NCBI RefSeq assembly: GCF_963921235.1
Contig: NC_086097.1
Coordinates: 83,454,001 to 83,514,000, forward strand
Origin: Mobula hypostoma
Taxonomy: Eukaryota
Length of the DNA stretch: 60,000 nucleotides
Direction: 5' to 3'
Part shown: piece after piece, positions 5,421 to 49,585 of the stretch
Numbering within the stretch: the stretch's first letter is position 1
Layout: every line of letters begins with the position of its first letter
Notes under the pieces: generated by a model
Databases searched by the model: none
What the model was told of the DNA's origin: nothing
Seen by the model: only the letters and a program-made list of their open reading frames with translations
Translations under genes and position numbers: made by a program

Positions 5421-5423
5421 CAA

Positions 5424-5615
5424 GCAGCACACACAGAATGCTGGAGGAACTCAGCAGGCCAGGCAGAACTATAGAAAAAGGTACAGTCGACGTTTCAATG
5501 TTTTCAATGGTCCGAAACGTCGACTGTACTTTTTTCCATAGATGCTGCCTGACTTACTGAGTTCCTCCAGCATTTTGTGTGTGTTGCTCGGATTTCCAGC
5601 ATCTGCAGACTTTCT
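5424..5615. repeat. Inverted pair of Penelope-like terminal repeats
   Basis: Arms of about 73 bp (5424-5496 and 5514-5587) are near reverse complements; same unit as 30150-30290 and 44160-44291. Confidence 0.75.
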
Positions 5616-5689
5616 CTGGCTTCTCTGTGGGTCACCCATGATTTTTGGTTTGCTGTGGCAGCATAATGTTTAATCACGATAAATAAAAA

Positions 5690-29211: not shown

Positions 29212-29784
29212 CTCAAGAGAACATCTGAGAGTTAATCAAAACAAGTTGCAGACAGATTCCACAGCGAAGGACAAACAGTAATTGGACCCTGTTCAGAACA
29301 GAGCACACATAAGTTGGCACTTAATTTAACCCGTTATGTACAAGAGTTCAAGAATCATTTCTTACATCCCCAAATACCCTTAAAACTTCATCAATCTTCT
29401 GGCTTTAGCTCTTCAAGGTTTCAGCAAAGAGAGGCTTCAGTCAACAAAAGTAAAGGGAAGAAAGCTCAAGCTTTTTTCCCATCTCTTCTTTATATTTGCT
29501 CAGCTAGGAACAGTAGAGATGCCAGGCAGGATAGTGAAATGCTCCTCCTGTGGGACGTGGGAAGGCAAGGTGACCTCCAGTGTCCCTGACGACTACAACA
29601 GCGAGAAGTGCATCAAATCAAATAAATAAAGGCACACACCTGGAGAAGTTAACTTGTATATTCACTTTGCAGAGAGAACAATAGATCAATGCACATGGAT
29701 AAGTTATCAGTCAATAATTAATGCTAAGGGGGGAGTCATTGCACTAACAGAAATAGATCTGTACACTACACTGGAAACCCAGAG

Positions 29785-30505
29785 TAACATACACAAAATG
29801 ATGGAGGAATTATGGAAAGGAATAAATAGTTGATGTTTCAGGCAGAAAACGTTCAGCAGGATGGGTAGAAATGTCCTTGCAATGACATTTACTATTCTGA
29901 TGAAAGATTTTTAAAATCTGAAACGCAGGTTCTGTTTCCACCTTCCGCAGTTGCTACCTGACTTGCCGCGTGTTTCAATCACAAACAAGAGAAAAGCTGC
30001 AGATGCTGGAAACCCAAGCAACACACACAAAATGGAGGAGGAACTGAGCAGGCCCGCAGCATTTAAGAGTACTGTCGACATTTTGGGCTGAATTCCTCCC
30101 TCATTTTGTGTGTGTTGCTGAGTGTTGCAGGTGTTTTTTTTTTAATTTCAAACGCAAACAACAGGAATTCTGCAGATGCTGGAAATTCAAGCAACACACA
30201 TCAAAGTTGCTGGTGAACGCAGCAGGCCAGGCAGCATCTGTAGGAAGAGGCGCAGTCGACGTTTCAGGCCGAGACCCTTCGTCAGGACTAACTGAAGGAA
30301 GAGTGAGTAAGGGATTTGAAAGCTGGAGGGGGAGGGTGAGATCCAAAATGATAGGAGAAGACAGGAGGGGGAGGGATAGAGCCGAGAGCTGGACAGGTGA
30401 TAGGCAAAAGGGATACGAGAGGATCATGGGACAGGAGGTCCGGGAAGAAAGACAAGGTGGGGGGGGACCCAGAGGGTGGGCAAGAGGTATATTCAGAGGG
30501 ACAGT
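29785..30505. repeat. Cluster of Penelope-like terminal repeat copies upstream of ACOT
   Basis: At least four copies, in both orientations, of the ctgcagatgctgga...gcaggccaggcagcatct...gtcgacgtttc unit. Confidence 0.75.
30253..30290 (-). ncRNA. Minimal type I hammerhead ribozyme motif (Penelope-like element associated)
   Basis: Minus strand reads UAGUC-CUGACGA-A-GGGU-CUCG-GCCU-GAAA-CGUC-GACUG: conserved core, stem I UAGUC/GACUG, stem II, palindromic ACGU helix III, GUC cleavage triplet. Confidence 0.7.
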
Positions 30506-30544
30506 TTTTTTTTATTTTTAATTTCATGGTTTTCCATGCAGTGG

Positions 30545-31206
30545 ACTTGGGCCCCCGGTTTCCCAGTGACAGATTTTCCCACCTTTGGCCGCAGTACTAC
30601 AGTATTCGCAATCCCGTTGTCAGGTCCGTCATGCGCAGTACGCTGGCCTTTACTTGACTACCGGCAGGATGTTTATTGCAGCAGTGAGTTTAGCTGTGCG
30701 GTTCCTGCGGATCCCTGGCTGCAGCCCGTGTCGCTGGGCCGGCATGTCTGCGAGTGCGTGGCTGGAACCGGGCGCCAAATGCCTCTTCGATGAGCCGGTG
30801 CGGCTACGGGTGAGTGGTCTGTCGGCCCTGCAACAGGTCACCCTGAAGGCCTCCCTCACTGATGAGAAGGACGTAACTTTCAGTTCGGTGGCTTTCTACC
30901 AGGCGGATAAGCGGGGCGAGCTGGAACTGTGCCGCTCGCCGTCCCTGGGCGGCTCCTACACGGGCACCGAGCCCATGGGCCTCTTCTGGTCGCTCACGCC
31001 AGCCACTCCGTTAAAGCGTCTGGTGAAGAAAGATGTGGCCACTTCGCCGCTGCGGGTCCGCATCGAAGTGTTTGATGGGCACAGCGGCGATCCCCAGGGG
31101 CTCCCACTGGCCGCCTGTGTCAATGAGCGCTGGTTCATGAGTGAAGGGGTGACCAGGATCCCAGTGAGAAAGGGCAGGATCCGCGGGGTACTCTTTGTCC
31201 CACCTG
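30545..31206 (+). promoter_or_regulatory. CpG island / probable promoter of the ACOT gene
   Basis: GC- and CpG-rich relative to the CpG-depleted flanks; spans the first coding exon. Confidence 0.65.
30669..31206 (+). CDS. acot1-like: Type I acyl-CoA thioesterase (ACOT1/2-like, ACOT/BAAT family) exon 1; in-frame ATGs at 30669 and 30744
   Basis: LEPGAKCLFDEPVRLRVSGL...ASLTDEK...SLGGSYTGTEPMGLFWSL...RIPVRKGRIRGVLFVPP; phase-1 donor G|GTAAG at 31206/31207. Confidence 0.93.
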
Positions 31207-31399
31207 GTAAGAATGGCACTTGTATGTATGTAATTGAGCCAATTTATTGTGTGTGTTTACCTTGCACTAAACGTAGAACATTTTTGGCTTTATAAAAGTT
31301 TTTTTCCTAAAGTAATATTGCACAGTTTGAAACAATAACAATGTATTAGATAGGTTGCCGTAGCCAGTAGTTCAGTCTGCAGAAAGCTTTGGAAGGTAC

Positions 31400-31540
31400 A
31401 GGCAAACACGAGGGAATCTGCAGATGCTGGAATTTCAAGCAACACACATAAAAGTTGCTGGTGAACGCAGCAGGCCAGGCAGCATCTATATATAGGAAGA
31501 GGTACAGTCGATGTTTCGGGCTGAGACCCTTGGTCAGGAA
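31400..31540 (-). repeat. Penelope-like terminal repeat with a mutated hammerhead core
   Basis: Near copy of 30160-30290; minus strand CUGACCA-A-GGGUCUCAGCCC-GAAACAUC-GACUG. Confidence 0.75.
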
Positions 31541-32102
31541 GATACAGGCTTTGGGTTACTCAGGTTGGAATGGGTCGTTGTCATCATTATCATCATCAGG
31601 TGCCGTGCCCAGATTGAGCTTTGACTGCCATGTAGTTTATCAATGCCTTCTAAATATCGACTGTTTACTTTATCTAAAGCACTTATTACTTCTCCAAAGA
31701 ACTAAAATAAAGTGGTCAAATATGATTTCTCTTTCTCAAAACCATCTTGACTTTATCTAATTATTTTCGAAGTGCCCCATGCTACTCTAATGCCTGTAAT
31801 AGCTTTTGTTTGATACATGTTAAAGAAAAATAGTCCATGTTTTTCTACTTGCTGACTTTTTGAATAAAGGAGTTTTTTTGCAATATTCAAAACTATTGGA
31901 GATTTCCCCAAATGTGTGAAATTTTGGAAGATCATAATTTTCTTTGAGATTCAATGATAATGTTCATCAGGACTTAGGAAGTTGACAACCTGTAGCTCTG
32001 TATGCTCAAAATACTCAGTATTGACTCTCTGATGATTACAATTTCCTGAGTTCTTCCTCTTAATTCCCAATTTATCATTATTTCTGGAATGTGGTATCAA
32101 CT

Positions 32103-32368
32103 AAACATAGAAAATAGGTGCAGGAGTAGGCCATTTGGCCCTTCGAGCCTGCGGCATCATTCAGTACAATCATGGCTGTACCAGTCTTTCCTCCATACCC
32201 CCTGATCCCTTTAGCCACAAGGGCCATATCTAACTCCCTCTTAAATATAGCCAATGAATTGGCCTCAACTGTTTCCTGTGGCAGAGAATTCCACAGATTC
32301 ACCATTCTCTGTGTGAAGAAGTTTTTCCTAATCTCGGTCCTAAAAGGCTTCCCCTTTATCCTCAAACT
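32103..32368 (-). mobile_element. CR1 3'-terminal fragment
   Basis: Closely matches the reverse complement of about 3608-3890, with an internal deletion. Confidence 0.92.
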
Positions 32369-32864
32369 AAAATTACCTATTTAATTCATCCGTCATTTTA
32401 CTATATTGTATTATTAAATCCCCGGACACACTTTCTATGGCCTAAAATTCACTTTGTTAATACTTTTCTTTTAAAAAATGTGGAAAAAAACTTTTATCTG
32501 CTTTTTACATTTTTAGCAAACTTTATGTCACACTCTAGTTCTTTTTGTTAATCTTTGACAGACTCTTTTTGCTGTTCAAGTTAAGTTTATTGTCATGTGC
32601 ACAAGTATGCTGAGGTACAGGTACAATGAAAAACTTGTTTACAGCAGCATTACATAGGTTTACACAACAAACAGATAAATTATACATAAGTTAAACATAT
32701 TATATAGCACAGTAAAAAGAAAATAAAGATCGTGCAAACCAAGACTTTATTGCAAAAATAAATCACAATCAGTGACAAGTCAAGTGAAGTACAAGAGGTG
32801 GCCCAGAGTGTTCCATTGCTGAGGTACGATTTGGGTTACACTGGTTGATTCAAGAACCTGATGC

Positions 32865-33625
32865 TTATCGTCATCGTCATCAGGTGCCATGCCCGGATTG
32901 AGCTTTGACTGCCATGGCCCACTGACTCCTGTTTCGGGTCAAGTGGATCAATTCATTGGTATTCATTTCCAGTTCTCTGGCTGCTGTCATTTGTCTTTGC
33001 CTTCCTTTTGCTTTCTTCCCTTCAATCTTTCCCAGAATTACTGTGCATTCTAACTCCTCTCCTAATCACATGTCCAATAAAGTTACATTGCCTCTTCATG
33101 ATCTCATACATTATTTCTCTTTTTGTGCTTGCTCTGTTCATGACATCCTCTTTAGATATTCGTTTCATCCATGATATTCTTTGCATCCTCCTCAAAAACC
33201 ACATCTCTGCTGCTTCAATTCATTTCCTCATGTTACTAGATATTGTCCAACATTCTGATCCATATAACATAACTGGATAAACGTAACATTTCAGTACTCT
33301 GAGGCGGGTTGTCATGCCTAGTTTAGTGTTGGTCAGTATTCATTCTCGTAAAGGTGTCTTTAGCCATCCCTATTCTTCTTTTGATGTCCATGTCGCACCT
33401 GCCATCTGATGTCACCCAACTTCCTAAGTAGCAAAAGTTCTGTTCTTGTTTTATGTCTTCCCTGTTTATTTTTAGGCTGCAGATAGGATTCTCCTTCTTT
33501 TTGGATATCACCATACATCCTGTCTTTTTGCGATTGATAGATAGACCCATTTTTGTACTTCCTTCAACAACTATATCAATTAAGTTTTGTAGTTCTTCCT
33601 CCATACTTGCAATTAACACAGTGTG
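32865..33625 (-). mobile_element. RTE-clade LINE 3' fragment
   Basis: GLSINRKKT..MVISK, FCYLGS, DIKRRIGMAK, MWFLRRMQRISW; (gat/gac)n tail; a short copy of the same 3' end lies at about 31575-31632. Confidence 0.85.
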
Positions 33626-34244
33626 GGAACGGGTATGATCTCAATAGCCACCCAAAAGGTACTAAATGTTAAAATCTCCTTTGACATGATCAGGCATTGA
33701 ACGCTTGTGTAAGTACATTGAAAACCTGCCACATTCTGATCTGGAGTTTAATTGTAGGGATAGACTGTTGTTCCTGACTAAATACCTCCTGCAATTTTGA
33801 AGATTTTCATCGGACTGCCTTTGGCAGTAATATTTCTCGAATGATCTTCATTAAAAAAGACACAAGCACTTAGTCAATGCATTGCTTTTCACGTAAGCTT
33901 GTTTCAACTGCTATCAAAGTAGTGTATTACATTAACAATTTTCCGTCATGTTGATTATTTGTGTAGAGATACAGTAGGGTAATAGGCCCTCCTGGCCCAG
34001 AGAACCCACATGCCCAGGAACACCCATGGAAATCCACATGATCACGAGAGAAAGTACAAACAGCAGCTGAATTGAACTCAGGTCAATGGCACTATAATAG
34101 CGTAATGCTAACCGCTATGCCACCATGCTGCCCAAAATGTACTTTCATGTTTCAAAGTACATCCTTATACAATGTAAATATAACTTTTTAAGAGCTTTTA
34201 GTTTCAAGTGGACCATTGAAACCAAGCAATCTATAGATTTCAGT

Positions 34245-35885
34245 ACAACGCACAGAAGATATGGGAGGAACACAGGCAGCATCTGTGGGAATGAATAAGC
34301 AGTTGACGTTTTGGGGTGAGACACTTTCAGGACTGAAAAGGAAGGGGGAAGATGCCAGAATAAAAAGGTGGGGGGAGGGGAAGGAGGTGGGCTAGAAGGT
34401 GGTAGGTAAGCCACATGGGTAGGAAAGGTAAAGGGCTGAAGAGCAAAGAAATTGATCGGAGAGGAGAGTGGGCCATAGGAGAAAGGGAATGAGGAGGGAA
34501 GCTGGGGGGGGGGAGTGATGGGTAGGTGAAAGGAGGGGGTGAATAGAAGAGGGGACGACGAGGGAAATTTCTACCAAAAGGTGAAATCAGTGTTCATGCC
34601 ATCAGGTTACCCAGACAGAATATAAAGTGTTACTTCCTCACCCTGAGAATGGCTTCATCGTGGCAAGAGAGGAGGCTGTGCACCATTGTGTCAGAATGGG
34701 AATCGGAATTAATATGTTTGGCCAACGGGAAGTTCCGCTTTAGGCAGATGGAGCAGAGGCACTTGACGAACAGTCCCCCAATTTATGACAGACCTTGCCA
34801 GTATAGAGGAGGTCTCAGTGGGAGCACCAGAAACAATAGACAATCCTAGCAGATTTGCAGGTGAAGTGTTACATCATCTAGAGAGACTGTTTGGGGCCTT
34901 GAATGGAGGTGAGGGAAGGGAGGAGGTGAATGGGTAGGTGTAGCACTTGGGTCACTTGCAGGGCTAAGTGCCAGGAGGATGATTAGTTGGGAGGGATAAA
35001 TGGACTAGGGGATTACGGAGGGAGCGATCCTTGCAGAAAGCCGGGGGGGGGGGAGAGGAGGAGGGAAGGTAAAGGTATGTTTAGTGGTGGGATCCCTTTG
35101 GCGATGACAGAAGTTTCAAAGGATGATGTGCTGGATGCAGAGGCTCATGGGTGATAGGTAAGGACAGGATCACTGTTGAGGCAGCGGGAAGGATGGGTGA
35201 GCGGGGATGTTTGGGAAATGGAGGAGATGCAGATATGGGCAGTATCAATAATAGAGGAAGGAAAACCCCGTCCTTTGAAGAAAGAGGACATCTGTCCTAG
35301 AAAGAAAAGCCGTATCCTGGGAACAGGTGCAGTGGAGGCGTAGGAACTGAGAAAGGGAGATGGTGTTTTTTCAGAAGATGAAGTAGTAAAAGTACCCATG
35401 GGAATCGGTAGATTTATAAAAGATGTCAGTTGACAGTTTGTCTCCAGCAATGGAAACACAGAGACTGAGAAAGGGGAGGGAGGAAATGGACCAAGTGAAT
35501 TTAAGGGCAGGGTGGATGTTAGAGGCAAAATTGATGAAATTGACAAGCTCAGCATAGGTGCATGGAGAAGCACTAATGCGGTTGACAATGTAGGGGAGGA
35601 AGAGTTGGGGAGTATGACCAGAGAAGTCTTCAAACGTGGACTGTTCTATGCAGGCATAGCTACGCAGGTGCTCATGACTACACCTCGAGTCTAGAAAATG
35701 TGGGAGGAGCTGAAGAAAAAATTGTTGAGGCCGAGAACTAGTTCTGCTAGACAGAGGAGGGTGCTAGTAGAGGGGAATTATTTGGTTCTTTTGTTAAGAA
35801 AGCACAGAGCTTTGAACCTTTCTTGATGGGGTATAGAAGTGAACATCCAGGGTGAAAATGAGGCATTCAGAGCCAGGGAATTGAA
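34245..35885 (-). mobile_element. Degenerate Penelope-like element (RT C-terminal part, GIY-YIG end and terminal repeat)
   Basis: MSSFFKGRGFPSSIID..., PVLTYHP, PDGMNTDF C-terminus at about 34580-34610, then a purine/pyrimidine-biased tract and the hammerhead-bearing repeat at 34300-34335. Confidence 0.7.
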
Positions 35886-36949
35886 AATTACTGAGGAGAT
35901 TAAGATTTCAGTGTCATTGTTAACCGTTTTGTAGCTACACCATAGCACATTAATCATACCTTTTGTATAATAGTACAATTTTACTCACAGCATTAATTAC
36001 CATCGGGCAGAGCCTAATCTCCAGTTGCCTTGTTCTTCTATGAAACTAATTCTGTGAAGCTATGTGGTAGCTGGTATGCAGTGGCTAACCATGCTAAAAG
36101 AATTCACATGCAGACAACTTCCACACCACAATATAGATTTCAGAGCTGGAATGCCAGTGCACTTCATGGGCAATCACAACCTGAATGCTGCTTGGCTATC
36201 ATAGCTCAGGAAATAAAATGTTTCAGCTGAAGGAGCACAATGAGGAGGAGGGCAAGGGGTATATCTTCTGGAGGGACAAATCAGAAAAGGAATACACAAT
36301 TTACGGAGTGAACTTCAGCCCAATTAAGTTCATCTGGCATCTCAGCTACTTCCTGTGAAATGGGTGAATACCAGATCATTCCAATATGGAATGAACACAT
36401 TCTGGCCATGGTGCATATGTTCCTTCTCCAAAAGCTTCAGATGAAGCTTAGGTGGGCATCAAATTCCTACTCCATATCCTAAAGAGAAACTGATTGACCC
36501 TACCTGACTTTAACATATAGCTTTGAGGTGAGAGCAGAAGTGTTTAAAGATTTATGAGACTATTTTTCATTTTGCAGAGGAAATTGTAGACAATGGGTGG
36601 GCGGCCAGGAGAGGTGGTGAAAGCAGATACAGTAACAACATTTAATAAGCATTCAGATAGACACATGAACACGGACTAGAGGGATATAGACCATGTACAG
36701 ACAGGCAGGATTAGCTTAATTTGACATTGTGGTCAGCACAGATCTCATGATCTGAAGGGCCTGTTCCTGTGTTGTACCGTTCTATGTTCTAGCAAGGTGT
36801 AATTAACAAGTCATAAGTACAAGATTTCAGTATAGATTTCAGGTCATGCACAATCTTGATGAGGATGTGTTGGTAGACAAGATCCATATAGATTGCCTCA
36901 GTCTTCAAGGAGATCAGTGAGGCTTGTCTAGGATAGGGGTGGAAAGAAG

Positions 36950-38702
36950 AACAGAGAATGGATACAAAAGGAAACATGGACAACCTTAGAAGAAAGATGG
37001 AAAATTAAGAAGCAAGTGTTAGATGCAAAGTCAATATGAATTATGGTGAAATTTCAACCAGCACGCACCGAAGCTAACAAGAAGGTGAACAGGCTTTTAA
37101 GAAAGGATGAGAGGGTCTAAATGAAAGACCTTGCAGAGGAGGCCAAAGCAGCAGCCAGTCAAGGAGATCAGGGATTTCAGAATGGGTATGCAGAAAGTTC
37201 CTGGCCAGATCCAGTTATCCCGTGAAAGATAAGAATGGTCTGCTTTTGACAACTGAGGAAGAGCAAAAAGCACGAGGGACAGAGTATTTCAGAGAATTAC
37301 TGAATAGGCCACTATCAGATGAGAGTCAGCAGAGGACCTCAACATCAGCATATAGATCCACCATGAAAGAAGAGATTGTTGCTGTGATTAAATCATTAAA
37401 CAACAGCAAAGCTCCACAACATGACAATTTGAACATCAGACTGTTCAAAGCTGAAACAGAAGTTGCAGCAGCAATCCTGCAGCCACTGTTTACTGTAATC
37501 TGGGAATGGGGACAAGTACCCGAGAACTGGACAAAGGGAGTTACTGTTAGGATCCTCAGGAAAGCAGTGCTAAATGATTGTAACAACTGCCATGGCGTCA
37601 CACTTTTATCAGTGCCCAGCAAGATTCTCACCAAAGTCATTGACCATGCTGGCTTCAGGAAGAACAGAGGCTATGTCAATCAGATTTTCACGTTGCGTAA
37701 CATCATAGAACAGTGCACAGATTGGCAAAAACAACTGTGTGAATTTTGTGGACTTCAACATCCACGTGGAGACCCTTTGGCAAATTTTCAGATCATATGG
37801 GATTCCTTCCAACTTATCCAGAGTTTCTATGCTAATTTCACCTGCACAGCTGGGGACTATAATCTGAGCTCTGAAGTCAAGTCAGGTATCAGGTATAGCT
37901 GTGGGATGTCAGCAATATTGTTTAACCTGGTTATGAGACAAACAACGAAAGATAGCAGAGAGGCATTAGGTGAACTCTATTGTCTACTTTAGAAGACCTT
38001 GACTTTGCAGATGATCTCATATTATTACCACATACACACTTGCATGTGCAAGAGAAAACTCAGTGCCTGTGCACCTTTGGACAGGTTGGACTCACTCTCC
38101 TAACTGAAACCACGACCCTCAATGTAGAGTCTCCTCCTCCCATTAAGGCATACGGCACTGACTTGCCCATCTCCAACAGATTCACCTAGTGGGACCAAGG
38201 ACAACATCCAGTGCAAATTCAGCAAAGTTAGAAATGTCTTCAGATCTATGAGCAATGTATGGGGATCAACCAAGTACAGTATCCATACCAAGGTGCTCTG
38301 TGCAGACTCTTGTATGTGTCAGATGACAAAGCAACCTTACCAAGCCACCGTCATTCCATACCATGAAACTCCAGAAGATCCTCCATATTTTCTGGCCAAG
38401 AAAGATCTCCAAGCATGCACTAGTCCTTCAGTGTCACCTAGAGGACATAGCTACAATCATCATGAGGAAACATTTGGGGATGGATTGGGCACATGATGTG
38501 AAGAGGGGTCACCTCCATCATCAAGATAGCACTTTATTGGGCCCATGAAGGGCGGAGGAAACATGGGAGACCAAAGTCATTTTGGTGTTGTAGAAATGAG
38601 GACCCCGAACCATACCTGGGGCGCAATAGGAAAAATGGCCAAGGACAGACAGAGATGGAGGAGCTTCATTGCTGCCCTAAATGCCAGCAGCAGTAAGTAA
38701 GC
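36950..38702 (+). mobile_element. RTE-clade LINE, degenerate
   Basis: GVTLLSVPSKIL, AGFRKNRG..QIFTLRNIIEQC, LEDLDFADDL; tail agtaagtaag. Confidence 0.85.
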
Positions 38703-39250
38703 ACAGTTCTGCAGATACTGAAAATCCAGAGAAAAATGCTGGAGGAACTCAGAAGGCCAGGCAGCATCAATGGAAATGAATAAACAAACGAGGTTTAGGG
38801 CTGAGGGCCTTCATCAGGACCGAAAAGCAAAGGGGAAGAAGTCAGAATAAGGTCGGGGGAGGGAAAGGCGTAGAGTCTGGGTGAGCATGTGGTAGAAGAG
38901 TTGGAAAGCAGCAGAAATCAAAGAGGGAGAACAGTGAGAGGGTTTCACTGAACTCCCATTGAAGAGAAGATTTAAACTTCTTTAGAGTAGGCGTTTCTCG
39001 AAGAGACTTTGCAGTGGAGCAGCAAATCATAAACACAAGATTCTGCAGATGCTCACTTCTCCCCTTTGTGATCTCTGCTGCTGCTCTGACCATGCACTCA
39101 ACTGAGCGGTGCTCCTTCACCTCTACTCACCTTATTGTGGCTTCTTCCCCTTCCTTTCCAGTCCTGATGAAGGCTCTTAGCCTGAAACTGAGACTGTTTA
39201 TTCCGCTCCATAGATGCTGCCTGACCTGCTGAGTTCCTCCAGTATTTGTA
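38703..39250. repeat. Penelope-like terminal repeats in opposite orientations
   Basis: Hammerhead-like motifs at 38785-38822 (-) and 39159-39196 (+) within the shared repeat unit. Confidence 0.7.
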
Positions 39251-39699
39251 AATTCGCAAGTAGGTTTTAAGGGTGACTAACCCCAACAGAGTTTTCCTTT
39301 TGGGGGATAAAAAGGGCTTGGAGCTTGGTTGTGACATATTAAATCAAGAACATAGAGTCATGAAGCAATACAACACAGATGCAGGCTCCTTAGCTCTGAA
39401 TCCATCTTTACCCTCTAAGCCCTTCTTGTACAATTCCTGGTGCACAAAGATAATATGCAACCCCTCCCCTTTGTCCAAGCATTGGCATCTATTAGATTGT
39501 GTCATTGTCTGGACGAGGGGTTGCAAAGACATTTACATCAGCCAAATTGCAACAGCACTGATGACTGCTAAACTGATCACTGCATAATCCACCTGTATTC
39601 AACCTTGCCCCAAAGTCTTAGCATCAGCAAAGCATTGCAATAAGGTGATCAGTGCTAAAGTTCTCAAGAGCACCATAAAGGCAATGTTTTAAAAACATA

Positions 39700-40535
39700 A
39701 AGAACCTGGTGTCATGACAACAACATTTCCCTCAATGTCAACAAAACAAAAGAGCTGGTGATACGCTACAGGAAGGTGGAGGGTGCAATTGCTCCTGCTT
39801 ACATCAATGGCTCTGATGTCAAGAAGGTTGAAACTTTCAAGTTCATAGAAGTGATTGTCACCAATAGCCTGTCCTGGTCGAACCACGTAGATGCCATGGC
39901 TAAGAAAGTACACCAGCACCCCTACTTCCTCAGAAGAGACTAAAGAAGTGTAACATATTCCCTTTGATCCTTAATCCTTTATCACTGCACAACAGAACGC
40001 ATCCTATCAGGATGCATCACAGCTCTGTACGGCAAGTGCTCTGCTCAAGACTACCAAAAACCGCAGAGAGTTGTCACCTCTCAGCACATCACAGAAACCA
40101 GCCTCTACCCTATGGACTCAGTACATAAGACACTTCTCCCTGTCTCGATAAGGCAGCCAACATAATCAAAGACTCCATACAATCTGGACATTCTCTGTTC
40201 TCCCCACTCCCATTGGGGAAAAGATACAAAAGCCTGAAAGCACATACCCCCAGGCTCAAAGACAACAGCTACCCCACTGTTATAAGACTTAACGGTTCCA
40301 TAGCACAATAAGACTTTTATTGAGGCTCACAGTCTACCTTGTATGACCTTGCACCTTATTGGCTACCTGCACTGCACTTTCTCTGTAATGGTAACGCTTC
40401 ATCTTGCATTTTGTTATTTTCTTTCATACTACCTCAATGTACTGATCTGATCCCTCGATCTCGATGGAAATATGCAAAACAAAGTTTTCCAATCTACCTT
40501 GGTATGTGTGACAATAATAAACCAATTTACCAATT
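39700..40535 (+). mobile_element. Rex1-like LINE 3' fragment
   Basis: YINGSDVKKVETFKF...LSWSNHVDAMAKK; ends aataataaaccaatttaccaattt. Confidence 0.75.
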
Positions 40536-41359
40536 TCTGAGCTAATTTCCCAGTCTTCAGAAGCCATAGAACATTCATGAGCTATGGGCTGCCTTTGGTA
40601 TCAATAAGGAGTTTCCTAGCTTTCCAACAAAAGGTGTGTTCATTAGTTTGATAATATCTCAGAAATGTTATGCATTCCTGGATTCAGATATATACCTGTT
40701 ATTCAAGAGGGAGGTAAAGTACAGCTCTACAATCTGAACATAAACCTGGGCAGCCATTAAACTGCTAAAGAATGCTGACCACCTCACCTATCTCAAAGGT
40801 TGCTACTCTGCAAAAAAAAAAGCGCCACTCATCAGTGATATAATTCACCTTTAAGTCAGCATAGCCTTCGGTCCATTTAAACATCTGGACCGCATACCCT
40901 GTGCTTAAGTAAAGGTTACTATGTAGTATTAACCCCCCCCCCCCGTATGTAACTGTACTGATGCATTAGGCTTCTATCATGCAAATTTAAGTCGGTATCT
41001 ATCAAGAAACCACCCGTGAATATTCATTCAGGAAAATGGTATGGATTTATAACACGAGATTATGCTAATGCTGGAAATCTTGAGCAACACACACAAGTGG
41101 GCTGATACCCATTATCAGGACCGGTGAAAGTTTTCAGCCTGAAATGTCAACTGTTTATTTCCTTCCATAGGTGGACACATTACAGTTCTGTCCATCAGCT
41201 GGCATTTGTCCCTTTGGGCTTTGTCTTTCTCAACTGTGTGGAGGAAGATGCTATCATACCATATACATCCAGACTCACTGAATTATTAATCATGTCCCTC
41301 CCCTTGCAACTTTATAGTGTTGGCCTGGCCTTTCCCTCATGCCACCTTTTCCCTGTCCC

Positions 41360-43700
41360 AGTACCCTCTACATTAGGAGTAGGTATAACTTCTTTAGCTG
41401 GGATGGATGTCTCAAGGAAATCCTTCTCGATCCTTGAAGCTTCAGTGCAAAAGAATGCCGGAAGAAATGATCATGCAGAAACAAAAAAATTAATATCCCC
41501 AAAGGGGATTGAACAAAGGGAACTATGGTGCTATGGGGGAGGAGCTGTCCAAAGTTCAATGGAACAATACCCTAGCAGGGATGACAGTGGAACAGCAATG
41601 GCAAATGTTTCTGGAATAATGTGGAAGGTGCAGGATCAGTTCGTTCCAAAGAGGAAGAAAGATCCTAAGGGGAGTAAGGGGAGGCCGTGACTGACAAGGG
41701 AAGTAATGGACAGTATAAAAATAAAAGAGAAGAAGTACAACATAGCAAAGACAAGTGGGAAGCCGGAGGATAGGGAAACTTTTAAAGAGCAACAGAAGGT
41801 AACTAAAAAGGCAATACACGGAGAAAAAATGAGGTATGAAGGTAAACTAGCCAAGAATATAAAGGAGGATAGTAAAAGCTTCTTTAGGTATGTGAAAATG
41901 AAAAAAATAGTTAAGACCAAAATTAGGCCTTTGAAGACAGAAGCAGATGAATTTATTATGGGGAACAAGGAAATGGCAGACGAGTTGAACAGGTACTTTG
42001 GATCTGTCTTCACTAGGGAAGACACAAACAATTTCCCAGATGTAATAGTGGCCAAAGGACCTAGGGTAATAGATGAATTGAAGGAAATCTATATTAGGCA
42101 GGAAATGGTGTTGGATAGGCTGTTGGGTCTGAAGGCTGTTAAGTCCCCAGGACCTGATAGTCTGCATCCCAGGGTACTTAAGGAGGTGGCTTTAGAAATC
42201 ATGGACGGATTGGTAATCATTTTCCAATGTTCTATAGATTCAGGATCAGTTCCTGTGGATTGGAGGGTGGCTAATGTTGTCCCTCTCTTCAAGAAGGGAG
42301 GAAGAGAGAAAACGGAATTATAGACCAGTTAGCCTGACGTCGGTGCTGGGAAAGATGCTGGAGTCAATTATAAAAGATGAAATTACGACACATCTAGATA
42401 GTAGTAACAGGATTGGTCCGAGTCCGCATGGATTTATGAAGGGAACATTGTGCTTGACTAATCTTCTGGAATTTTTTGAGGATGTAACTATGAAAATGGA
42501 CAAGGGAGAGCCAGTGGATGTAGTGTACCTGGACTTTCAGAAAGCCTTTGATAAAGTCCCACATAGGAGATTAGTGGGCAAAATTAGGGCACGTGGTATT
42601 GGGGGCAGAGTACTGACATGGATTGAAAATTGGCTGGCTGACAGAAAGCAAAGAGTAGCGATTAACAGGTCCCTTTCAGAATGGCAGGCGGTGACCAGTG
42701 GGGTACCGCAGGGTTCAGTGCTGGGACCGCAGCTATTTACAATATATATTAATGATTTAGATGAGGGAATTAAAAGTGACATTAGCAAATTTGCCGATGA
42801 CACAAAGCTGGGTGGCAGTGTGAAATGTGAGGAGGATGTTATGAGAATGCAGGGTGACTTGGACAGGCTGGGTGAGTGGGCAGATGCAGTTTAATGTGGA
42901 TAAATGTGAGGTTATCCACTTTGGTGGTAAGAACGGGAAGGCAGATTATTACCTAAATGGAGTCAAGTTAGGAAAAGGGGAAGCACAACGAGATCTAGAT
43001 GTTCTTGTACATCAGTCACTGAAAGCAAGCATGCAAGTACAGCAGGCAGTGAAGAAAGCTAATGGCATGCTGGCCTTCATAACAAGGGGAATTGAGTATA
43101 AGAGCAAAGAGGTCCTTCTGCAGCTGTACAGGGCCCTGGTGAGACCACACCTGGAGTACTGTGTGCAGTTTTGGTCTCCAAATTTGAGGAAGGACATTCT
43201 TGCTATTGAGGGAGTGCAGCATAGGTTCACAAGGTTAATTCCCGGGATGGCGGGACTGTCATAGGTCGAAAGATTGGAGCAACTAGGCTTGTATACTCTG
43301 GAATTTAGAAGGCTGAGAGGAGATCTTATTGAAACATAAGATTATTAAGGGATTGGACACGCTGGAGGCAGGAAGCATGTTCTCGCTAATGGGTGAGTCC
43401 AGAACCAGAGGCCACAGTTTAAGAATTAGGGGTAGGCCATTTACAATGGAGTTGAGGAAAAACTTTTTCACCCAGAGAGTGGTGGATATATGGAATGCTC
43501 TGCCCCAGAAGTCTGTGGAGGCCAAGTCTCTGGATGCTTTCAGAAAAGAGATGGATAGAGCTCTTAAAGATAGTGGAATCAAAGGTTATGGGGATAAGGC
43601 AGGAACTGGATACTGATTGTGGATGATCAGCCATGATCACAGTGAATGGCAGTGTTGGCTCGAAGGGCCGAATGGCCTACTCCTGCATCTATTGTCTATA
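41360..43700 (+). mobile_element. CR1-clade LINE, 5'-truncated and frameshifted
   Basis: ORFs 41706-42323, 42274-42894, 42854-43264 and 43329-43616 cover RT motifs (GVPQGSVLGP, FADD); CR1 3' UTR gggccgaatggcctactcctg. Confidence 0.95.
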
Positions 43701-44149
43701 AATCAACGAAAACTCTGGCACCTTCCAATTCCCATTAAATTAAAAATTGATGAAGTGACACGTTTTGACTACTCCCTCCGGCGCTCTTGACATATTGAGG
43801 CCATCCTGAAAGGCTGACCAGATGCAATTGTGGGACATCCTGGCCCGAGTCCCTGTGGTAGCTGTTGGGGTGTCCTACATGCCCTAGCAAAATGACCTTG
43901 TTTCCCACAATTCTAATTTTTCATCTACCTTGGGTTTCCTGGGGCTGATCTCTTCTCCTTGCCTTAGGAGTGCATAATTGAGCGGGGAATCTTTGGTTTT
44001 ACTCCCCCCACTTGTAATCCCCCTCTTCTTTATTCCAGACTGGGATAGAATTTACACCTACCAAACAGAATCAATCTTACCATTCTCTTTAGGCTTTCTT
44101 ATTTCTTTCACCTCCTCTTCCCATGCTCTAGCAAGCCTTTGGAGTACCA

Positions 44150-44690
44150 AATCATAAACACAAGGGGTTCTGCAAAAGCTGGAAATCCAGAGCAACACAG
44201 AATGCTGGAGGAACTCAGCAGGTCAGGCAGCATCTATGGAAATGAATAATAAACAGTCAATGTTTTGGGCTGAGACCCTTCATCAGGACTGAAGAGGAAG
44301 AGGGAAGACACCAGAATAAAAAGTGGTGGGTGGGGGGAGGTAAAGGAGGACAAGCTAGAAGATGATAAGTGAAGTCAGGTAGGTAGGAAAGGTAAAGGAG
44401 GAATATGATAGGATAGGGGAGTGAACCATGGGAGAAAGAAGAAGGGGTACCGGGGGAGGGGATAGGCAGGTGAGGAGAAAGGGCACTCCTATTCCAAACT
44501 GTCAGTCCATGGCCGCCTCTTTTGTCATGATAAGGCCACTCTCAGGGTGAAGGAGCAAAATCTGGTATTCCATCTAGGTAATCTCCATCCAACCTGATGG
44601 CATGAACATCAATTTCTCCTTCCAGTAATTTTTTCTTTTTCCTTCCCCTTTCCCTCTTCTATTCCCCACTTCTGCCTCTTATCTCTTCTC
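44150..44690. mobile_element. Penelope-like terminal repeat (-) joined to a GIY-YIG C-terminal fragment (+)
   Basis: Hammerhead-like motif at 44254-44291 (-); 44500-44625 encodes KEQNLVFHLG..QPDGMNINFS. Confidence 0.7.
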
Positions 44691-45068
44691 AATGATGAGG
44701 CAGGTATATGAACAACATTTAGAAAGTACTAGGACAGGTACATGGATAGATCAGGTTTAAAGGAATGTGGGCAAAGGGGACAAGCTTAAATGGGAATCTT
44801 GGGCAGGTGGACCAGTTGGACTAAAGGCCTATTTCCATGCTGTATTATTCTATGACCCTGATTCTAGTTCCAGTGCCAAAATTATATATTTTGTGAATAG
44901 CTAGGACCTAAATACTGATACCTGTAGTTTCTCACTTGTCACCGCTAGCTATCCTAAGTAAGCCCCATTTATACCTATTCAACGTTTCGTGTGTAATCCA
45001 TGATGTACAGAGTCTTAATTACATTGTAAATTTCCATGATGAATCACTGTAATCTTTGAATTTGACAG

Positions 45069-45271
45069 GCAATGGTCCATTTCCAGGGGTTATTGACATG
45101 TATGGGTCAGTCGGTGGGGTGGTTGAACACAGAGCTAGTCTCTTGGCAAGCCATGGATTTCTGACGCTGGCTTTAGGATATTTTGGATTCGATGACCTTC
45201 CAAACCACTTTCTCAACCTTGATCTTGAATACTTTGAAGAAGCTGTGAACTTCTTGAGGCAGCATTCAAAG
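45069..45271 (+). CDS. acot1-like: ACOT1/2-like exon 2 (203 bp)
   Basis: Acceptor tttgacAG|GC, donor [60 protein letters not shown]; phases match exons 1 and 3. Confidence 0.95.
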
Positions 45272-45990
45272 GTAAGATGCTTCATGTTCCATTTAGAAAA
45301 TAATTTTGAATATGATTCTTTGAAAAAGGGAAGGACAATTTGTTCAATGCAAAAGAATGCAATTAATTTGCATATTTTCCTTGCCATCTTGTGATGTCAA
45401 GAAAGATCCTGGGGGAGGTAAAATAGCCAATTCACAAACATCTCGGGAATATCGATGTTGAATGCGGGGAATGAAATACTCAGATTTCAGTGCTTGTTAT
45501 AACTGGACAGCAATTGAACTAACTAGCAGGAACTCCTCTGCTCCTTTCCTGAGATGGAAATACACATTTCAGCAAACTATTACTGATGTTGAAAACTGGG
45601 AAGAAGTACTCCTGGGCATGTAATTTCCCTGCTGCCTCCTAAGAGTTCGATTAGGTGTTCAAACTTAAGGCTGAACGTTTGAGCTATCTCATGAATACTG
45701 TTCATTTTGGACAATTTTTGAGGAGAGTTGAGTTAAAGGAACAGGGAGGGATGAAAGAATGGAGGGAACAATAGAAGGGGATACCAAAATTCCATATTGG
45801 ATGGGATATTTCCTTTAATTAGAAAATTGCCCGCCTTATTCATTTTTACATCATTTTCACAATCTGAAACCTATCTTGCAAAGATTGGGATCCTAGATGA
45901 ATAATTCCAAGCTATTGTTCCAGGGACACCTGGTATGCACAACCACCCAGGAAAATGTGATTTGTTGCTGGTACTCTGATTGGTCTAGAG

Positions 45991-46191
45991 CAGTGGTCCC
46001 CAACCACTGGGCCGTGCAGAAACCATATGATTTGGCGATATCAAACGATATGAGTCAGCTGCACCTTTCCTCATTCCCTGTCACGCACTGTTGAACTTGA
46101 ACACCACCCCCCCCCGCCCCCATTGGCCAATCCACAAGAATATTGTCAGTATTAAACCGGTCCGCGGTGCGCAAAAGATTGGGGACCCCTG
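45991..46191. mobile_element. hAT-Charlie-like MITE, 201 bp
   Basis: TIRs cagtggtcccca / tggggacccctg; TSD gtctagag/ctctagag (NTCTAGAN type); same family as 28462-29211, in opposite orientation. Confidence 0.88.
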
Positions 46192-46196
46192 CTCTA

Positions 46197-46467
46197 GAGG
46201 CTGGTGGGGTGGTAGATGAGGACAAGAGGAATCCTATCCCTGGTAGGGTGGCAGGAGGATGGGATAAGAGTAGACATGCATGAAATGGAAGAGATACGGT
46301 TGAGGGCAGTATTGATGATGGAGGAAAGGAAGCCTCTTTCTTTGAAAAAGGATGACATCTCCTTCGTTCTAGAATGAAAAGCCTCATCCTGAGAGCAGAT
46401 GTGGTGGAGACAGAGGAATCGAGAGAAGGGAATGGAGTTTTTACAAGTGGCAGGGTGAGACGAGGTA
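46197..46467 (-). mobile_element. Penelope-like element fragment
   Basis: TSSHPATCKNSIPFSRFLCLHHICSQDEAF..EMSSFFKERGF..IPLVLIYHP. Confidence 0.75.
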
Positions 46468-48889
46468 CAGTGGCATGCAAAAGTTTGGGAACCCCTGGTC
46501 AAAATTTCCTACAGTTAGTTAAGTGAGTAGAAGATGAACTGATCTCCGACAGTCATAAAGTTAAAGATGAAACATTTCTTTAATATTTTAAGCAAGATTA
46601 CTTTTTTATTTCCATCTTTTACAGTTTCAAAATAAAAAAGGAAAAGGGCCTGAAGCAAAAGTTTGGGCACCCTGCATGGTCATTACTTAGTAACACCCCC
46701 TTCGGCAAGTATCGCAGCTTGTAAATGCTTTCTGTAGCCAGCTAAGAGTCTTTCGATTTTTGTTTGGGAGATTTCTGCCCATTCCTCCTTGCAAAAGGCT
46801 TCTAGTTCTGTTAGATTCTTGGGCCGTCTTGCATTCACTGCTCTTTTGAGGTCTATCCACAGATTTTTGATGATGTTTAGGTCAGGGGACTGTGAGGGCC
46901 ATGGCAAAACCTTCAGCTTGCCATGTGGATTTTGAAGTGTGTTTAGGATCTTTCTTTTCTAATCTTTTTATTGATATCAAAATGTTAACCATAACATAAT
47001 AATACAAAACAATTGGGATTACATTATTAATAATTAGCATATAAAAATATAAGGTCAGTTAACACACGGATATTAACCTCCCAAAATCTTACAAAATACG
47101 AATAAGATAAAAAAATGTAGAAGTAGCATAGAAAAAGAAAAAAAAACAAAATACCCCCCCAAAAAAACTAAACAATACTAATCAACTAAACTAAAGAAAA
47201 GAAAAAGACGTGGGCTGTTACGTTACATCAGATAGGACCATTAGTGTCATCAACTCCGCTCCTCTCTCCATATATTTGAAAGTAATAGAATAGGTTTGGA
47301 AAAGGTCAAATTACATCATATGGAAGTGTTGAATAAATAGCCTCCAAGTCTTTTCGAATAGAGGGATCATAAAGACACTTCTAATTTTTTCTAAGTTTAA
47401 ACACAACATAGTTTGAGAGAACCAATGAATTGTGGTGGGAGGATTAATCTCTTCCCAATTCAGCAAAATGGATCTTCTAGCCATTAATGTAACAAATGCA
47501 ATCATCTGACGAGCTGAAAAGGTTAGATGAATTGGTTCTATCATTGGTAACCCAAAAATTGCCATAATAGGGTGAGGTTGTAAATCAATACTTAAAACAG
47601 TTGAAATAATATCAAAGATATCTTTCCAATATTTTTTCAAGAAAGGACATAACCAAAACATATGAGTTAAAGAAGCTATCTCAGAATGACTTACATCACA
47701 TACAGGATTTATATGAGGCTAATTTATCCTTAGATATATGGGCCCTTATTTTAAACTTAGATATATGTTTAGGATCATTATCCTGTTGCAGAAGCCATCC
47801 TCTTTTCATCTTCAGCTTTTTTCATAGATGGTGTGATGTTTGCTTCCAGAATTTGCTGGTATTTAATTGAATTCATTCTTCCCTCTACCAGTGAAATGTT
47901 CCCCGTGCCACTGGCTACAACACAAGCCCAAAGCTTGATCGATCCACCCCCATGCTTAATAGTTGTGGAGGTGTTCTTTTCATGAAATTCTGCACCCTTT
48001 TTTCTCCAAACATACCTTTACTCATTGCAGCCAAAAGGTTCTATTTTAACTTCATCAGTCCATAGGACTTGTTTCCAAAATGCATCAGGCTTGTTTAGAT
48101 GTTCCTTTGCAAACTTCTGATGCTGAATTCTGTGGTGAGGACGCAGGAAAGGTTTTCTTCTGATGACTCTTCCATGAAGGTCATAGTTGTGCAGGTGTTG
48201 CCGCACAGTTGAACAGTGCACCACCACTCCAGAGTCAGCTAAATCTTCCTGAAAGTCTTTTGCAGTCAAATGGGGGTTTTGATTTGCCTCTCTAGCAATC
48301 CTACGAGCAGTTCTCCCATAAAGTTTTGTTGGTCTTCCAGACCTCAACTTGACCTCCACTATTACTGTTAACTGCCATTTCTTAATTACATTACGAACTG
48401 AGGAAACAGCTACCTGAAAACACTTTGCTATCTTCTTATAGCCTTCTCCTGCTTTGTGGGCATCATTTATTTTAATTTTCAGAGTGCTAGGCAGCTACTT
48501 AGAGGAGCCCATAGCTGCTGATTGTTGGGACAAGGTTTGAGGAGTCAGGGTATTTATAAGCTTTGAAATTTGCATCACCTGGCCTTTCCTGATGATGACT
48601 ATGAACAAGCCATAGCCCTAACAATCTAATTAAGGTCTGAGACCTTGTAAAAAGTTATCTGAGAGCTCAAATCTCTTGAGGTGCCCAAACTTTTGCATGG
48701 TGCTCTTTTCCTTTTTTCACTCTAAAACTGTACAAAACAAAAATAATACACTAATCTTGCTTAAAGTGTTGAAAAGAATGTTTCATCTTTAACTTTATGA
48801 CTTTTGGAGATCAGTTCATCTTCTACTCACTTAACTATTCACAGTAATAGAAATTTTGACCGGGGTGCCCAAACATTTGCATGCCACTG
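46468..48889 (-). mobile_element. Tc1/mariner transposon of IR/DR type with decayed transposase (about 48512 to 46683)
   Basis: TA flanks; TIRs of about 200 bp starting cagtggcatgcaaa with inner direct repeats gcaaaagtttgggcacc; motifs GEGYKKIAK, GRPTKL, VLWTDE, WPSQSPDLNIIKNLW; early stop codon. Confidence 0.95.
46951..47765 (-). mobile_element. 5'-truncated L1 fragment nested in the Tc1 transposase
   Basis: ORF 47311-47661 is homologous to the C-terminus of ORF2 at 51586; 11-bp TSD tgtttaggatc (46940-46950, 47766-47776); AATAAA plus A-rich end on the minus strand. Confidence 0.92.
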
Positions 48890-48991
48890 TATGGTACAAG
48901 TGGTTCCACCCAAAGGTTGTTCTAGCATAATTTACTAGAAGTATAGATAATAAAGTTGATGCTGTTAACATGCATAAATTACTGTTTTAAG

Positions 48992-49585
48992 GTAACAGGT
49001 CCTGGAGTTGGAGCAATAGGAATATCAAAGGGAGGAGACTTGGTTCTTTCAATGACTACGTTTATACCACATGTGACAGCAGCTATCAGTATTGGTGGAT
49101 GTAATGCTAACACTTTAGGTAACTTGCATTACAAAAACATCACTATTCCAGGCCTGGGTATTTCATTTGACCAAGCTAGGTTTCTGGAATCAAATCTTAT
49201 TGATATCTCTGAAACAACAAATAACCCAAGGGATGAAGAAAATAAAGATTGTATCATCCCATTAGAAAAGGCTGAAGGTCATTTTTTGTTTGTGGTTGGA
49301 GAGGATGACAAGAATTGGAACACTTCACTCTTTGCTCAGCAAGCTATCGAACGACTGAAGGAAAATGGAAAAGAAAACTATGAAATTCTTACTTACCCAA
49401 AGGCAGGACACTTACTGGAGCCCTGCTATTTTCCATTCTGTTATGCTTCTTTTCATCGGTTGGTAGGGCTTCCTGTGTTATGGGGAGGAGAAATGAAAGA
49501 GCATTCATTAGCCCAGATAGACCTTTGGCCAAAGATTCAAATGTTTCTAAGAAAACATCTTGAAAAACAACAAAGCCAATTGTGA
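48992..49585 (+). CDS. acot1-like: ACOT1/2-like exon 3 (catalytic alpha/beta hydrolase part; ends -SQL stop)
   Basis: Acceptor ttttaAG|GTA; GISKGG (Ser), GEDDKNW (Asp), AGHLLEP (His); spliced product 419 aa from ATG 30744 or 444 aa from ATG 30669. Confidence 0.95.
   Translation, partial: VTGPGVGAIGISKGGDLVLSMTTFIPHVTAAISIGGCNANTLGNLHYKNITIPGLGISFDQARFLESNLIDISETTNNPRDEENKDCIIPLEKAEGHFLFVVGEDDKNWNTSLFAQQAIERLKENGKENYEILTYPKAGHLLEPCYFPFCYASFHRLVGLPVLWGGEMKEHSLAQIDLWPKIQMFLRKHLEKQQSQL

What the first reader, a model, noticed from the sequence alone, without database searches (positions are those of the whole stretch)
30253..30290. Intact minimal hammerhead ribozyme motif, one of a dispersed family in this window
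Seen: the minus strand gives stem I UAGUC/GACUG, core CUGACGA plus an extra A, stem II GGGU-CUCG-GCCU, GAAA, a loopless palindromic ACGU helix III and a GUC site. Related copies lie at 31505-31539, 34300-34335, 38785-38822 and 44254-44291 (all -) and 39159-39196 (+), several damaged at CpG sites, and some adjoin Penelope-like RT/GIY-YIG remnants. Known: Penelope-like elements carry minimal type I hammerheads thought to cleave as dimers through a palindromic helix III. Inference: this abundant SINE-like repeat is a ribozyme-bearing Penelope terminal repeat or retrozyme-like element that may yield self-cleaved or circular RNAs. I cannot tell whether it has been described in this species.
Basis: partly seen in the sequence, partly recalled or inferred. 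Interest (0 to 1): 0.72.

Follow-up and report, generated by a model that had tools for sequence, protein, structure and literature searches.

The report
Young Penelope stub carrying hammerhead motif
The motif is real: it is the small hammerhead (self-cutting RNA) signature already known from Penelope-type jumping genes, here in a recent 364-base insertion, likely a cut-short end piece of such an element, beside a ray's fat-metabolism gene, where on its own it is predicted to cut rarely, so it is ordinary.

Summary
Observation confirmed. 30290-30253 (-) is a minimal type I hammerhead: full core, extra A after A9, 5-bp stem I, 4-bp stem II, loopless ACGU helix III, GUC site (cut 30258/30257). 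It is the only full descriptor match in 60 kb (1 hit in 300 shuffles). One correction: pair 10.1-11.1 is G-U, not the conserved G-C. The five other listed copies are all broken.

It lies in a 364-bp insertion (30151-30514) with a perfect 12-bp target-site duplication; one contig of a related species shows the empty site. Sister copies follow a Neptune-type RT/GIY-YIG remnant in sense. So this is most likely a 5'-truncated end piece (pseudo-LTR) of a batoid Penelope-like element, not a SINE or tandem retrozyme. The link of this copy's own 5' part to the ORF is only suggestive.

Folding predicts a self-locked monomer; published relatives cut weakly as dimers or only with the element's protein. 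Cleavage was not tested. The adjacent acyl-CoA thioesterase gene carries the motif in antisense.

The class is published (PMC4209133). I found no paper on this ray family, but this scan has noted it in at least 23 genomes. New member of a known kind; low interest.

The parts
30253..30290 (-). Minimal type I hammerhead motif; core complete, G10.1-U11.1 wobble, predicted cut between 30258 and 30257
30151..30514 (-). 364-bp insertion carrying the motif: 10 A-rich non-family bases, 214-nt pyrimidine-rich stretch (likely 3' UTR), hammerhead, 102-nt downstream part with a hairpin
30515..30526 (-). Target-site duplication, upstream copy (12 of 12 identical)
   Evidence: empty site in run X15 record 9
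30139..30150 (-). Target-site duplication, downstream copy
31404..31536 (-). 133-bp sister insertion of the same subfamily (88% identical over 138 nt), starts at C3 of a broken hammerhead; 13-bp duplication (12 of 13) at 31537-31549 / 31391-31403
34273..35846 (-). Decayed Penelope-like element: RT thumb, zinc-finger linker and GIY-YIG remnant (35846-34564), 3' UTR, broken hammerhead (34335-34300) in the same sense
   Evidence: (tblastn of P0001, E 4e-64)
44150..44620 (-). Truncated copy: inverted piece of the endonuclease C-terminus (44475-44613, +), 3' UTR, broken hammerhead (44291-44254), downstream part
   Evidence: E 2e-8
38700..38870 (-). Short truncated copy with broken hammerhead (38822-38785)
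39112..39247 (+). Short truncated copy, core kept, helix III and cleavage triplet lost (39159-39196)
5414..5638 (.). Head-to-head fold-back of two downstream arms turning inside the hammerhead, with a 10-bp duplication (9 of 10)
29978..30121 (.). Older fold-back copy next to the focal insertion, also present in the related species' contig
29770..29872 (-). Decayed copy with remains of the hammerhead
41040..41173 (.). Decayed fold-back whose minus arm begins at the hammerhead's front edge
46197..46466 (-). Isolated internal piece of the same Penelope-like ORF, no hammerhead next to it
   Evidence: E 1e-33
30669..49585 (+). Host acyl-CoA thioesterase (ACOT/BAAT family) gene, exons 30669-31206, 45069-45271, 48992-49585, 445 aa open; context only. 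The focal insertion ends about 155 bp before its first ATG, antisense; five listed copies are in intron 1

Best explanation
This is a real minimal hammerhead motif inside a recent 364-bp insertion with a 12-bp target-site duplication, likely the 5'-truncated end (pseudo-LTR) of a Neptune-type Penelope-like retrotransposon of rays, and this lone copy is predicted to cut rarely. How it likely arose: the parent element's GIY-YIG endonuclease nicked an A/T-rich target, its reverse transcriptase started about 100 nt downstream of the hammerhead, copied through it and 214 nt of 3' UTR, and stopped early (insertion, duplication and empty site shown; enzyme steps inferred from PMC11167929). How the motif likely works in the parent: helix III is only the palindrome ACGU, so an active site needs a second copy or the element's protein; alone, G5-G8 of the core is predicted to pair with C15.2-C17 and lock the RNA in an inactive hairpin. 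The motif is kept in the master elements and decays in inserted copies. The neighbouring thioesterase transcript would carry its reverse complement, which has no core.
For: Descriptor match, 1 hit in 300 shuffles. Perfect 12-bp duplication in an A/T tract. Empty site: record 9 of run X15 (organism C) joins 30515 to 30138 at consecutive record positions 1688/1689, skipping 376 bp = 364 + 12. Same motif and downstream sequence follow an RT + GIY-YIG remnant in sense at 35846-34564 (E 4e-64) and an inverted endonuclease piece at 44475-44613. Named stingray relatives P0001-P0003 have a C-x2/3-C-x2-C linker before the GIY-YIG domain, the Neptune/Nematis mark in PMC8557442; 34 of 44 relatives of 750 aa or more share it. 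The family runs on past the copy's 5' end (loose end at 30504: 69 contigs of X1, agreement 0.95; 54 of X9, 1.0), so the copy is truncated. The motif is a shared island between subfamilies: contigs stop fitting at its edges, 30253 and 30289 (464 and 473 contigs of 16,054 in X1; 519 and 530 of 17,656 in X9), while the upstream stretches of the two subfamilies are no more alike than shuffles. Core-blocking helix probability 0.98-0.99 in the 38-nt monomer; double-hammerhead fold -11.5 kcal/mol against -30.3 for the inactive dimer and -22.0 for two monomers. PMC4209133: no monomer cleavage, low dimer cleavage for a schistosome minimal hammerhead; PMC11167929: no cleavage without the element's protein.
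Against: The focal copy's own 214-nt 5' stretch is not detectably similar to the 3' UTR behind the ORF remnant in this window (194 and 408 of 500 shuffles score as well). Its link to an ORF rests on the shared motif and downstream part, plus a weak match to the read-through tail of P0003 (best of 3990 window tiles, but 111 of 2000 shuffles reach the score). No full-length element with two terminal repeats lies in the window and no genome was held. The empty site rests on one contig of one run; X9 record 31 also starts to fit at 30515 but its first 75 letters were not shown. Folding energies ignore the tertiary core, so they cannot exclude cleavage. No cleavage or RNA-end data were obtained.
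Confidence: 0.85

Rival explanations
1. A non-autonomous, SINE-like family that borrowed the Penelope end (hammerhead plus downstream part) behind a 5' stretch of its own and is moved in trans by the Neptune enzyme.
For: The 5' stretch does not align with the UTR of the ORF-bearing copy in the window; the copy is young and has a clean duplication; non-autonomous PLE derivatives are described (PMC8557442 passages; bioRxiv 10.64898/2026.07.22.740005).
Against: Same-subfamily copies differ in 5' end (364 vs 133 bp); the family sequence continues upstream of 30504 in other copies; the weak P0003 match places the copy's first 80 nt shortly behind an endonuclease C-terminus.
Confidence: 0.09
2. A non-LTR retrozyme: monomer of a tandem, ribozyme-flanked repeat that is cut into unit-length RNA and circularised.
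For: Unit length (about 360 nt) is in the range reported for retrozymes, 363 bp on average for the one cartilaginous fish sampled in bioRxiv 10.64898/2026.07.22.740005; type I hammerhead.
Against: No tandem array in the window (TRF found 3 unrelated short repeats); one motif per insertion; no arm of the 12 read begins at the cut site; retrozymes in PMC7229834 are defined by tandem units, mostly with canonical hammerheads.
Confidence: 0.04
3. A copy kept or recruited by the host: the motif cuts a divergent (upstream antisense) transcript of the thioesterase promoter.
For: It is the one copy with a complete core and lies in sense to transcription running away from the gene, about 380 bp from the first ATG.
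Against: Youth explains the intact core: the site is empty in organism C, only about 5% diverged in the flank (34 differences in 693 nt). At about one copy per 5 kb a promoter-near hit is expected. Stems I and II have pairing probability below 0.1 in the 146-nt and 356-nt contexts.
Confidence: 0.02

Closest known systems
Minimal type I hammerheads (min-HHR) in pseudo-LTRs of metazoan Penelope-like elements (Cervera and De la Pena 2014, PMC4209133; parts 1-2 of 4 read)
   Same: Conserved core, extra nucleotide between 9 and 10.1, short helix I (5 bp), no loop 3, palindromic 15.2/16.2, mostly solitary copies from truncated elements; reported there in fish Xena, Poseidon and Neptune elements.
   Different: Helix II is 4 bp (7-8 bp in schistosome motifs); 10.1-11.1 is G-U in this copy; cartilaginous fish are not named in the parts read or in 2 of 3 supplementary files searched.
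Neptune-clade endonuclease-positive Penelope-like elements (Craig et al. 2021, PMC8557442, passages; Arkhipova et al. 2013, PMC3846280, passages)
   Same: RT followed by CX2-5CxxC linker and C-terminal GIY-YIG; hammerhead in the terminal repeat; 5' truncation, inverted 5' pieces, head-to-head repeats, short target-site duplications.
   Different: No full-length copy or 5' pseudo-LTR in the window; Neptune versus Nematis not separated by a tree; duplications here 10-13 bp against 8-10 bp in the rotifer examples read.
PAc Poseidon element of Anolis (Frangieh et al. 2024, PMC11167929; parts 1-2 of 4 read)
   Same: Hammerhead upstream of the point where inserted copies end; A/T-rich target (this target contains ATT); cleavage apparently not what defines copy ends.
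   Different: Different clade (no zinc-finger linker); there the ORF starts inside stem II, which could not be tested here.
Non-LTR retrozymes of animals (PMC7229834, passages; bioRxiv 10.64898/2026.07.22.740005, parts 1-3 of 5)
   Same: Type I hammerhead, non-coding, a few hundred bases, related to PLE terminal repeats.
   Different: No tandem units, minimal rather than canonical motif, variable 5' ends, no circle shown.

Membership tests
Minimal type I hammerhead (min-HHR) | Core C3 U4 G5 A6 N7 G8 A9 and G12 A13 A14, A15.1-U16.1, H17 | tested here: met
Minimal type I hammerhead (min-HHR) | [quoted passage not shown] | tested here: met
   A at 30278; 5-bp and 4-bp stems
Minimal type I hammerhead (min-HHR) | Palindromic, loopless helix III | tested here: met
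   ACGU at 30262-30259
Minimal type I hammerhead (min-HHR) | Conserved G10.1-C11.1 pair | tested here: inconclusive
   G-U in this copy; C-G kept in 2 of 11 arms and the rest fit CpG decay; the genome-wide majority could not be read (one search gave no variant rows)
Minimal type I hammerhead (min-HHR) | Self-cleavage as dimer or with protein help | not testable with these tools
   Only contigs were available, which show no RNA ends
Minimal type I hammerhead (min-HHR) | Compensatory changes in the stems across the family | tested here: inconclusive
   8 window copies: all 4 two-sided changes come from one decayed, probably misaligned row
Neptune-type Penelope-like element | RT followed by C-terminal GIY-YIG endonuclease | tested here: met
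   Remnant 35846-34564 matches P0001 residues 6-443; P0001 and P0002 hit Pfam GIY-YIG at E about 1e-3, just under the curated cut-off
Neptune-type Penelope-like element | CX2-5CxxC linker between RT and endonuclease | tested here: met
   Present in P0001-P0006 and readable in the window remnant; shared with Nematis
Neptune-type Penelope-like element | Hammerhead in the terminal repeat in sense to the ORF | tested here: met
   34335 copy lies about 235 nt behind the ORF end on the same strand
Neptune-type Penelope-like element | The focal copy's 5' stretch is the 3' UTR of such an ORF | tested here: inconclusive
   No DNA similarity to the other subfamily's UTR; weak match to P0003's read-through tail
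Neptune-type Penelope-like element | Two pseudo-LTRs around a full ORF; placement in the Neptune clade by RT tree | not tested
   No full-length copy in the window, no genome held, no labelled reference set
Non-LTR retrozyme | Head-to-tail tandem units each with a hammerhead | tested here: not met
   TRF on the window; single insertions with own duplications
Non-LTR retrozyme | Unit-length circular RNA | not testable with these tools
   No raw RNA reads served
Rfam hammerhead families | Match to a curated covariance model | tested here: not met
   No hammerhead family at E<=5 in the window

The most novel reading that the evidence does not exclude
A recently inserted, core-complete hammerhead now sits in sense to divergent transcription from the thioesterase promoter and is switched on by the element's own protein or a second copy, so that a lineage-specific retroelement insertion gives this promoter a conditional RNA cut site; its built-in lock (core G5-G8 pairing with the helix III palindrome) would be the switch that makes these ribozymes protein-dependent.
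Probability: 0.05. Interest if true: 0.5.

Novelty: new member of a known kind. Interest (0 to 1): 0.15.

Why it matters
As it stands, little: minimal hammerheads in Penelope-like terminal repeats are published for fish and other animals, and this is one copy among very many. Its use is practical. It is a young, core-complete copy with a clean duplication and an empty site in a relative, so it is a good template for testing what these ribozymes do, which is still open (PMC8557442 calls their function unclear; PMC11167929 found cleavage dispensable for insertion in vitro). The predicted self-lock gives a specific test of why such motifs need a partner or protein.

Tried and rejected
Rfam scan of the whole window: no hammerhead family. 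Whole genome: none held, so no genome-wide consensus or copy count. Motif pattern in viral and metagenome contigs: 0 matches each. P0001 in those collections: 0 loci and 3 weak loci (38-42% identity over 36-60 residues), not used. Sequencing runs: no RNA holder listed; no evidence on expression. Second read lay on a 58-base stretch gave no variant rows, so the frequency of C versus U at 11.1 stays unknown. Summed contig depth is not a copy number and was not used as one; 95,894 contigs of X1 and 107,343 of X9 were laid on the 1751-base stretch. Covariation on 8 window copies looked positive (4 of 500 shuffles reached the score) but all four two-sided changes come from the row at 11150-11212, which is decayed and probably misaligned: rejected. 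Fold stability against shuffles: no signal for the focal copy. Pfam on the broken window remnants: no PLE domain; identification rests on tblastn. Target-site duplications for the copies at 44291 and 38822: nothing beyond 7-base chance matches. Search with the element's open frame found only two manta-ray proteins with an exonised piece of the repeat, no link to an ORF. A paper I recall on small Penelope-linked hammerheads cleaving as dimers (Lunse et al. 2017) is not held and is recalled only. Literature searches for this family in rays or sharks (supplements) found no description; one supplementary file of PMC4209133 and all bioRxiv supplements could not be seen, Repbase/Dfam were not available, and most subscription papers are not held, so absence from print is not established.

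Full report
Observation. Position by position: stem I UAGUC/GACUG, core C3-A9 CUGACGA, an extra A, stem II GGGU/GCCU around CUCG, G12-A14, helix III A15.1 C15.2 G16.2 U16.1 with no loop, C17 at 30258. A descriptor scan finds only this site on either strand of the 60 kb, and 300 dinucleotide shuffles gave 1 hit in total, so it is not chance. Rfam has no model that catches it and its fold is no more stable than shuffles (z -0.16). One correction: pair 10.1-11.1 is G-U. PMC4209133 lists G10.1-C11.1 as highly conserved. Among 11 related arms in the window the two bases at 11.1/12 read C-G twice, T-G five times, C-A three times and C-T once, as expected from decay of a CpG. Whether U11.1 is fixed in the young subfamily could not be read.

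Host and setting. The closest proteins come from Hypanus sabinus and Mobula, so the window is likely from a ray. The motif lies upstream of, and antisense to, an intact three-exon acyl-CoA thioesterase gene (Pfam Bile_Hydr_Trans E 6e-43 and BAAT_C E 7e-65; 445 aa). The other five listed copies are in its first intron. The plus strand of the insertion has no hammerhead core.

The insertion. The motif sits in 364 bp (30151-30514) between two identical 12-bp A/T-rich sequences (30515-30526, 30139-30150). Record 9 of run X15 (organism C) covers 30515-31207 and 29983-30138 at consecutive record positions, skipping exactly 376 bp, that is the insertion plus one duplication. This is one contig of one run; record 31 of run X9 (organism B) also begins to fit at 30515, which is compatible but was not shown further. 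Organism C differs by 34 of 693 bases in the flank, so the insertion is young, which is enough to explain why this copy alone is still complete. Other copies of the family continue beyond 30504 with one agreed sequence (69 contigs of X1, 54 of X9), so this copy is cut short at its 5' end. A sister copy at 31404-31536 (88% identical over 138 nt) is 133 bp long, has its own 13-bp duplication and starts at C3.

The parent element. At 35846-34564 (-) lies a decayed RT, linker and GIY-YIG reading frame (tblastn of P0001, E 4e-64), followed in the same sense by about 235 nt of pyrimidine-rich sequence, a broken copy of the motif and the shared downstream part. The copy at 44291 is preceded by an inverted piece of the endonuclease C-terminus (E 2e-8). 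The relatives P0001-P0006 carry a C-x2/3-C-x2-C linker before the GIY-YIG domain, as do 34 of 44 relatives of 750 aa or more; PMC8557442 (passages) gives this as the mark of Neptune and Nematis elements. Two subfamilies are visible. They share the motif and, after a variable spacer of about 15 nt, the downstream part (0 of 500 shuffles reach the score), but not the upstream stretch (194 and 408 of 500 do). In the sequencing runs many contigs stop fitting exactly at the motif's edges, 30253 and 30289 (464 and 473 of 16,054 laid for X1; 519 and 530 of 17,656 for X9). I read this as constraint on the motif in the master elements. It also means that the focal copy's own 5' stretch is tied to an ORF only weakly: the read-through tail of P0003, a stingray RT/endonuclease protein, matches 30477-30427 better than any other of 3990 window tiles, stop codon included, but 111 of 2000 shuffles score as well.

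Mechanism. Shown: a target-site duplication, an empty site, variable 5' ends, similar 3' ends about 100 nt behind the motif, inverted 5' pieces and fold-backs (5414-5638, 29978-30121, 41040-41173). Inferred from PMC11167929 (parts 1-2 read): the endonuclease nicks A/T-rich DNA and reverse transcription starts inside the RNA downstream of the hammerhead, so most products are short end pieces. None of the 12 arms read by eye starts at the cut site, while 3-4 start within about 13 nt before C3; earlier notes of this scan explain this by an RNA start just before the motif, a reading I reuse and could test only on these few copies. For the ribozyme: with no loop 3 an active site needs two copies. 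In the 38-nt monomer the core bases G5-G8 pair with C15.2-C17 at probability 0.98-0.99; the double-hammerhead fold scores -11.5 kcal/mol against -30.3 for an inactive dimer and -22.0 for two monomers; in 146-nt and 356-nt context stems I and II have probability below 0.1. These energies leave out the tertiary core and cannot exclude cleavage. They agree with published behaviour: no monomer and low dimer cleavage (PMC4209133), cleavage only with the element's protein and not needed for insertion in vitro (PMC11167929). So this lone copy most likely cuts rarely.

Rivals. A separate non-autonomous family (0.09) stays open because of the unlinked 5' stretch. A retrozyme (0.04) fails its defining test here: no tandem units. 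Host recruitment (0.02) has only position in its favour; about 12 loci in 60 kb make a promoter-near copy unsurprising.

Novelty. The class is published, including Neptune elements of fish (PMC4209133), and a 2026 preprint (10.64898/2026.07.22.740005, parts 1-3 of 5 read) reports hammerhead repeats in one cartilaginous fish. Searches for this ray family (supplements 68, 69) found no description, with the gaps listed under Tried and rejected. This scan has met the family often: 67 findings in at least 23 genomes hold all my search words, and 1838 of 2891 notes on this genome fit 'hammerhead Penelope'; these are unchecked notes and did not set my score. What this locus adds is a dated, core-complete copy with an empty site. 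Verdict: new member of a known kind, interest 0.15.

Noticed in passing
window 29983-31207: Two contigs (X5 record 22, organism A; X15 record 9, organism C) stop fitting at 31207, the predicted donor of thioesterase exon 1, and carry about 1000 further letters, close to exons 2 + 3 plus a UTR. They reach upstream into the insertion (30446) or across its empty site (29983), so the insertion may lie in the gene's transcribed 5' region. Contigs show neither strand nor start, and the runs are not on record as RNA.
   Followed up: partly
window 30669-30745: The thioesterase frame has an upstream ATG that adds about 25 Arg/Ala-rich residues, like a mitochondrial targeting peptide (judged from recall).
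   Followed up: no
window 5414-5638, 29978-30121, 41040-41173: Three head-to-head fold-backs of the element's end that turn inside or at the front edge of the hammerhead; the first has a 10-bp duplication and folds at -129 kcal/mol.
   Followed up: partly
P0153, P0154 against window 30307-30173: Two annotated manta-ray proteins contain a translated piece of this repeat including the hammerhead, in sense (97% and 76% identity), i.e. predicted exonisation in host transcripts.
   Followed up: no
window 51586-57018 (-): Near-intact L1/Tx1-like retrotransposon by eye: a 306-aa ORF1 and a 1310-aa endonuclease/RT ORF2 without stops.
   Followed up: no
window 13141-15486 (+): Fragments resembling a hAT transposase (zinc-finger TTF-like and dimerisation-like stretches, by eye) interrupted by a CR1/L2-type LINE piece.
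   Followed up: no
window 48018-48494 (-): Tc1/mariner transposase fragment by eye, with 66-bp inverted arms at 46516-46581 and 48772-48837.
   Followed up: no
window 45980-46200, 28454-28554, 29122-29218, 57587-57837: A family of short inverted-repeat (MITE-like) elements; one interrupts the Penelope ORF piece at 46197.
   Followed up: no
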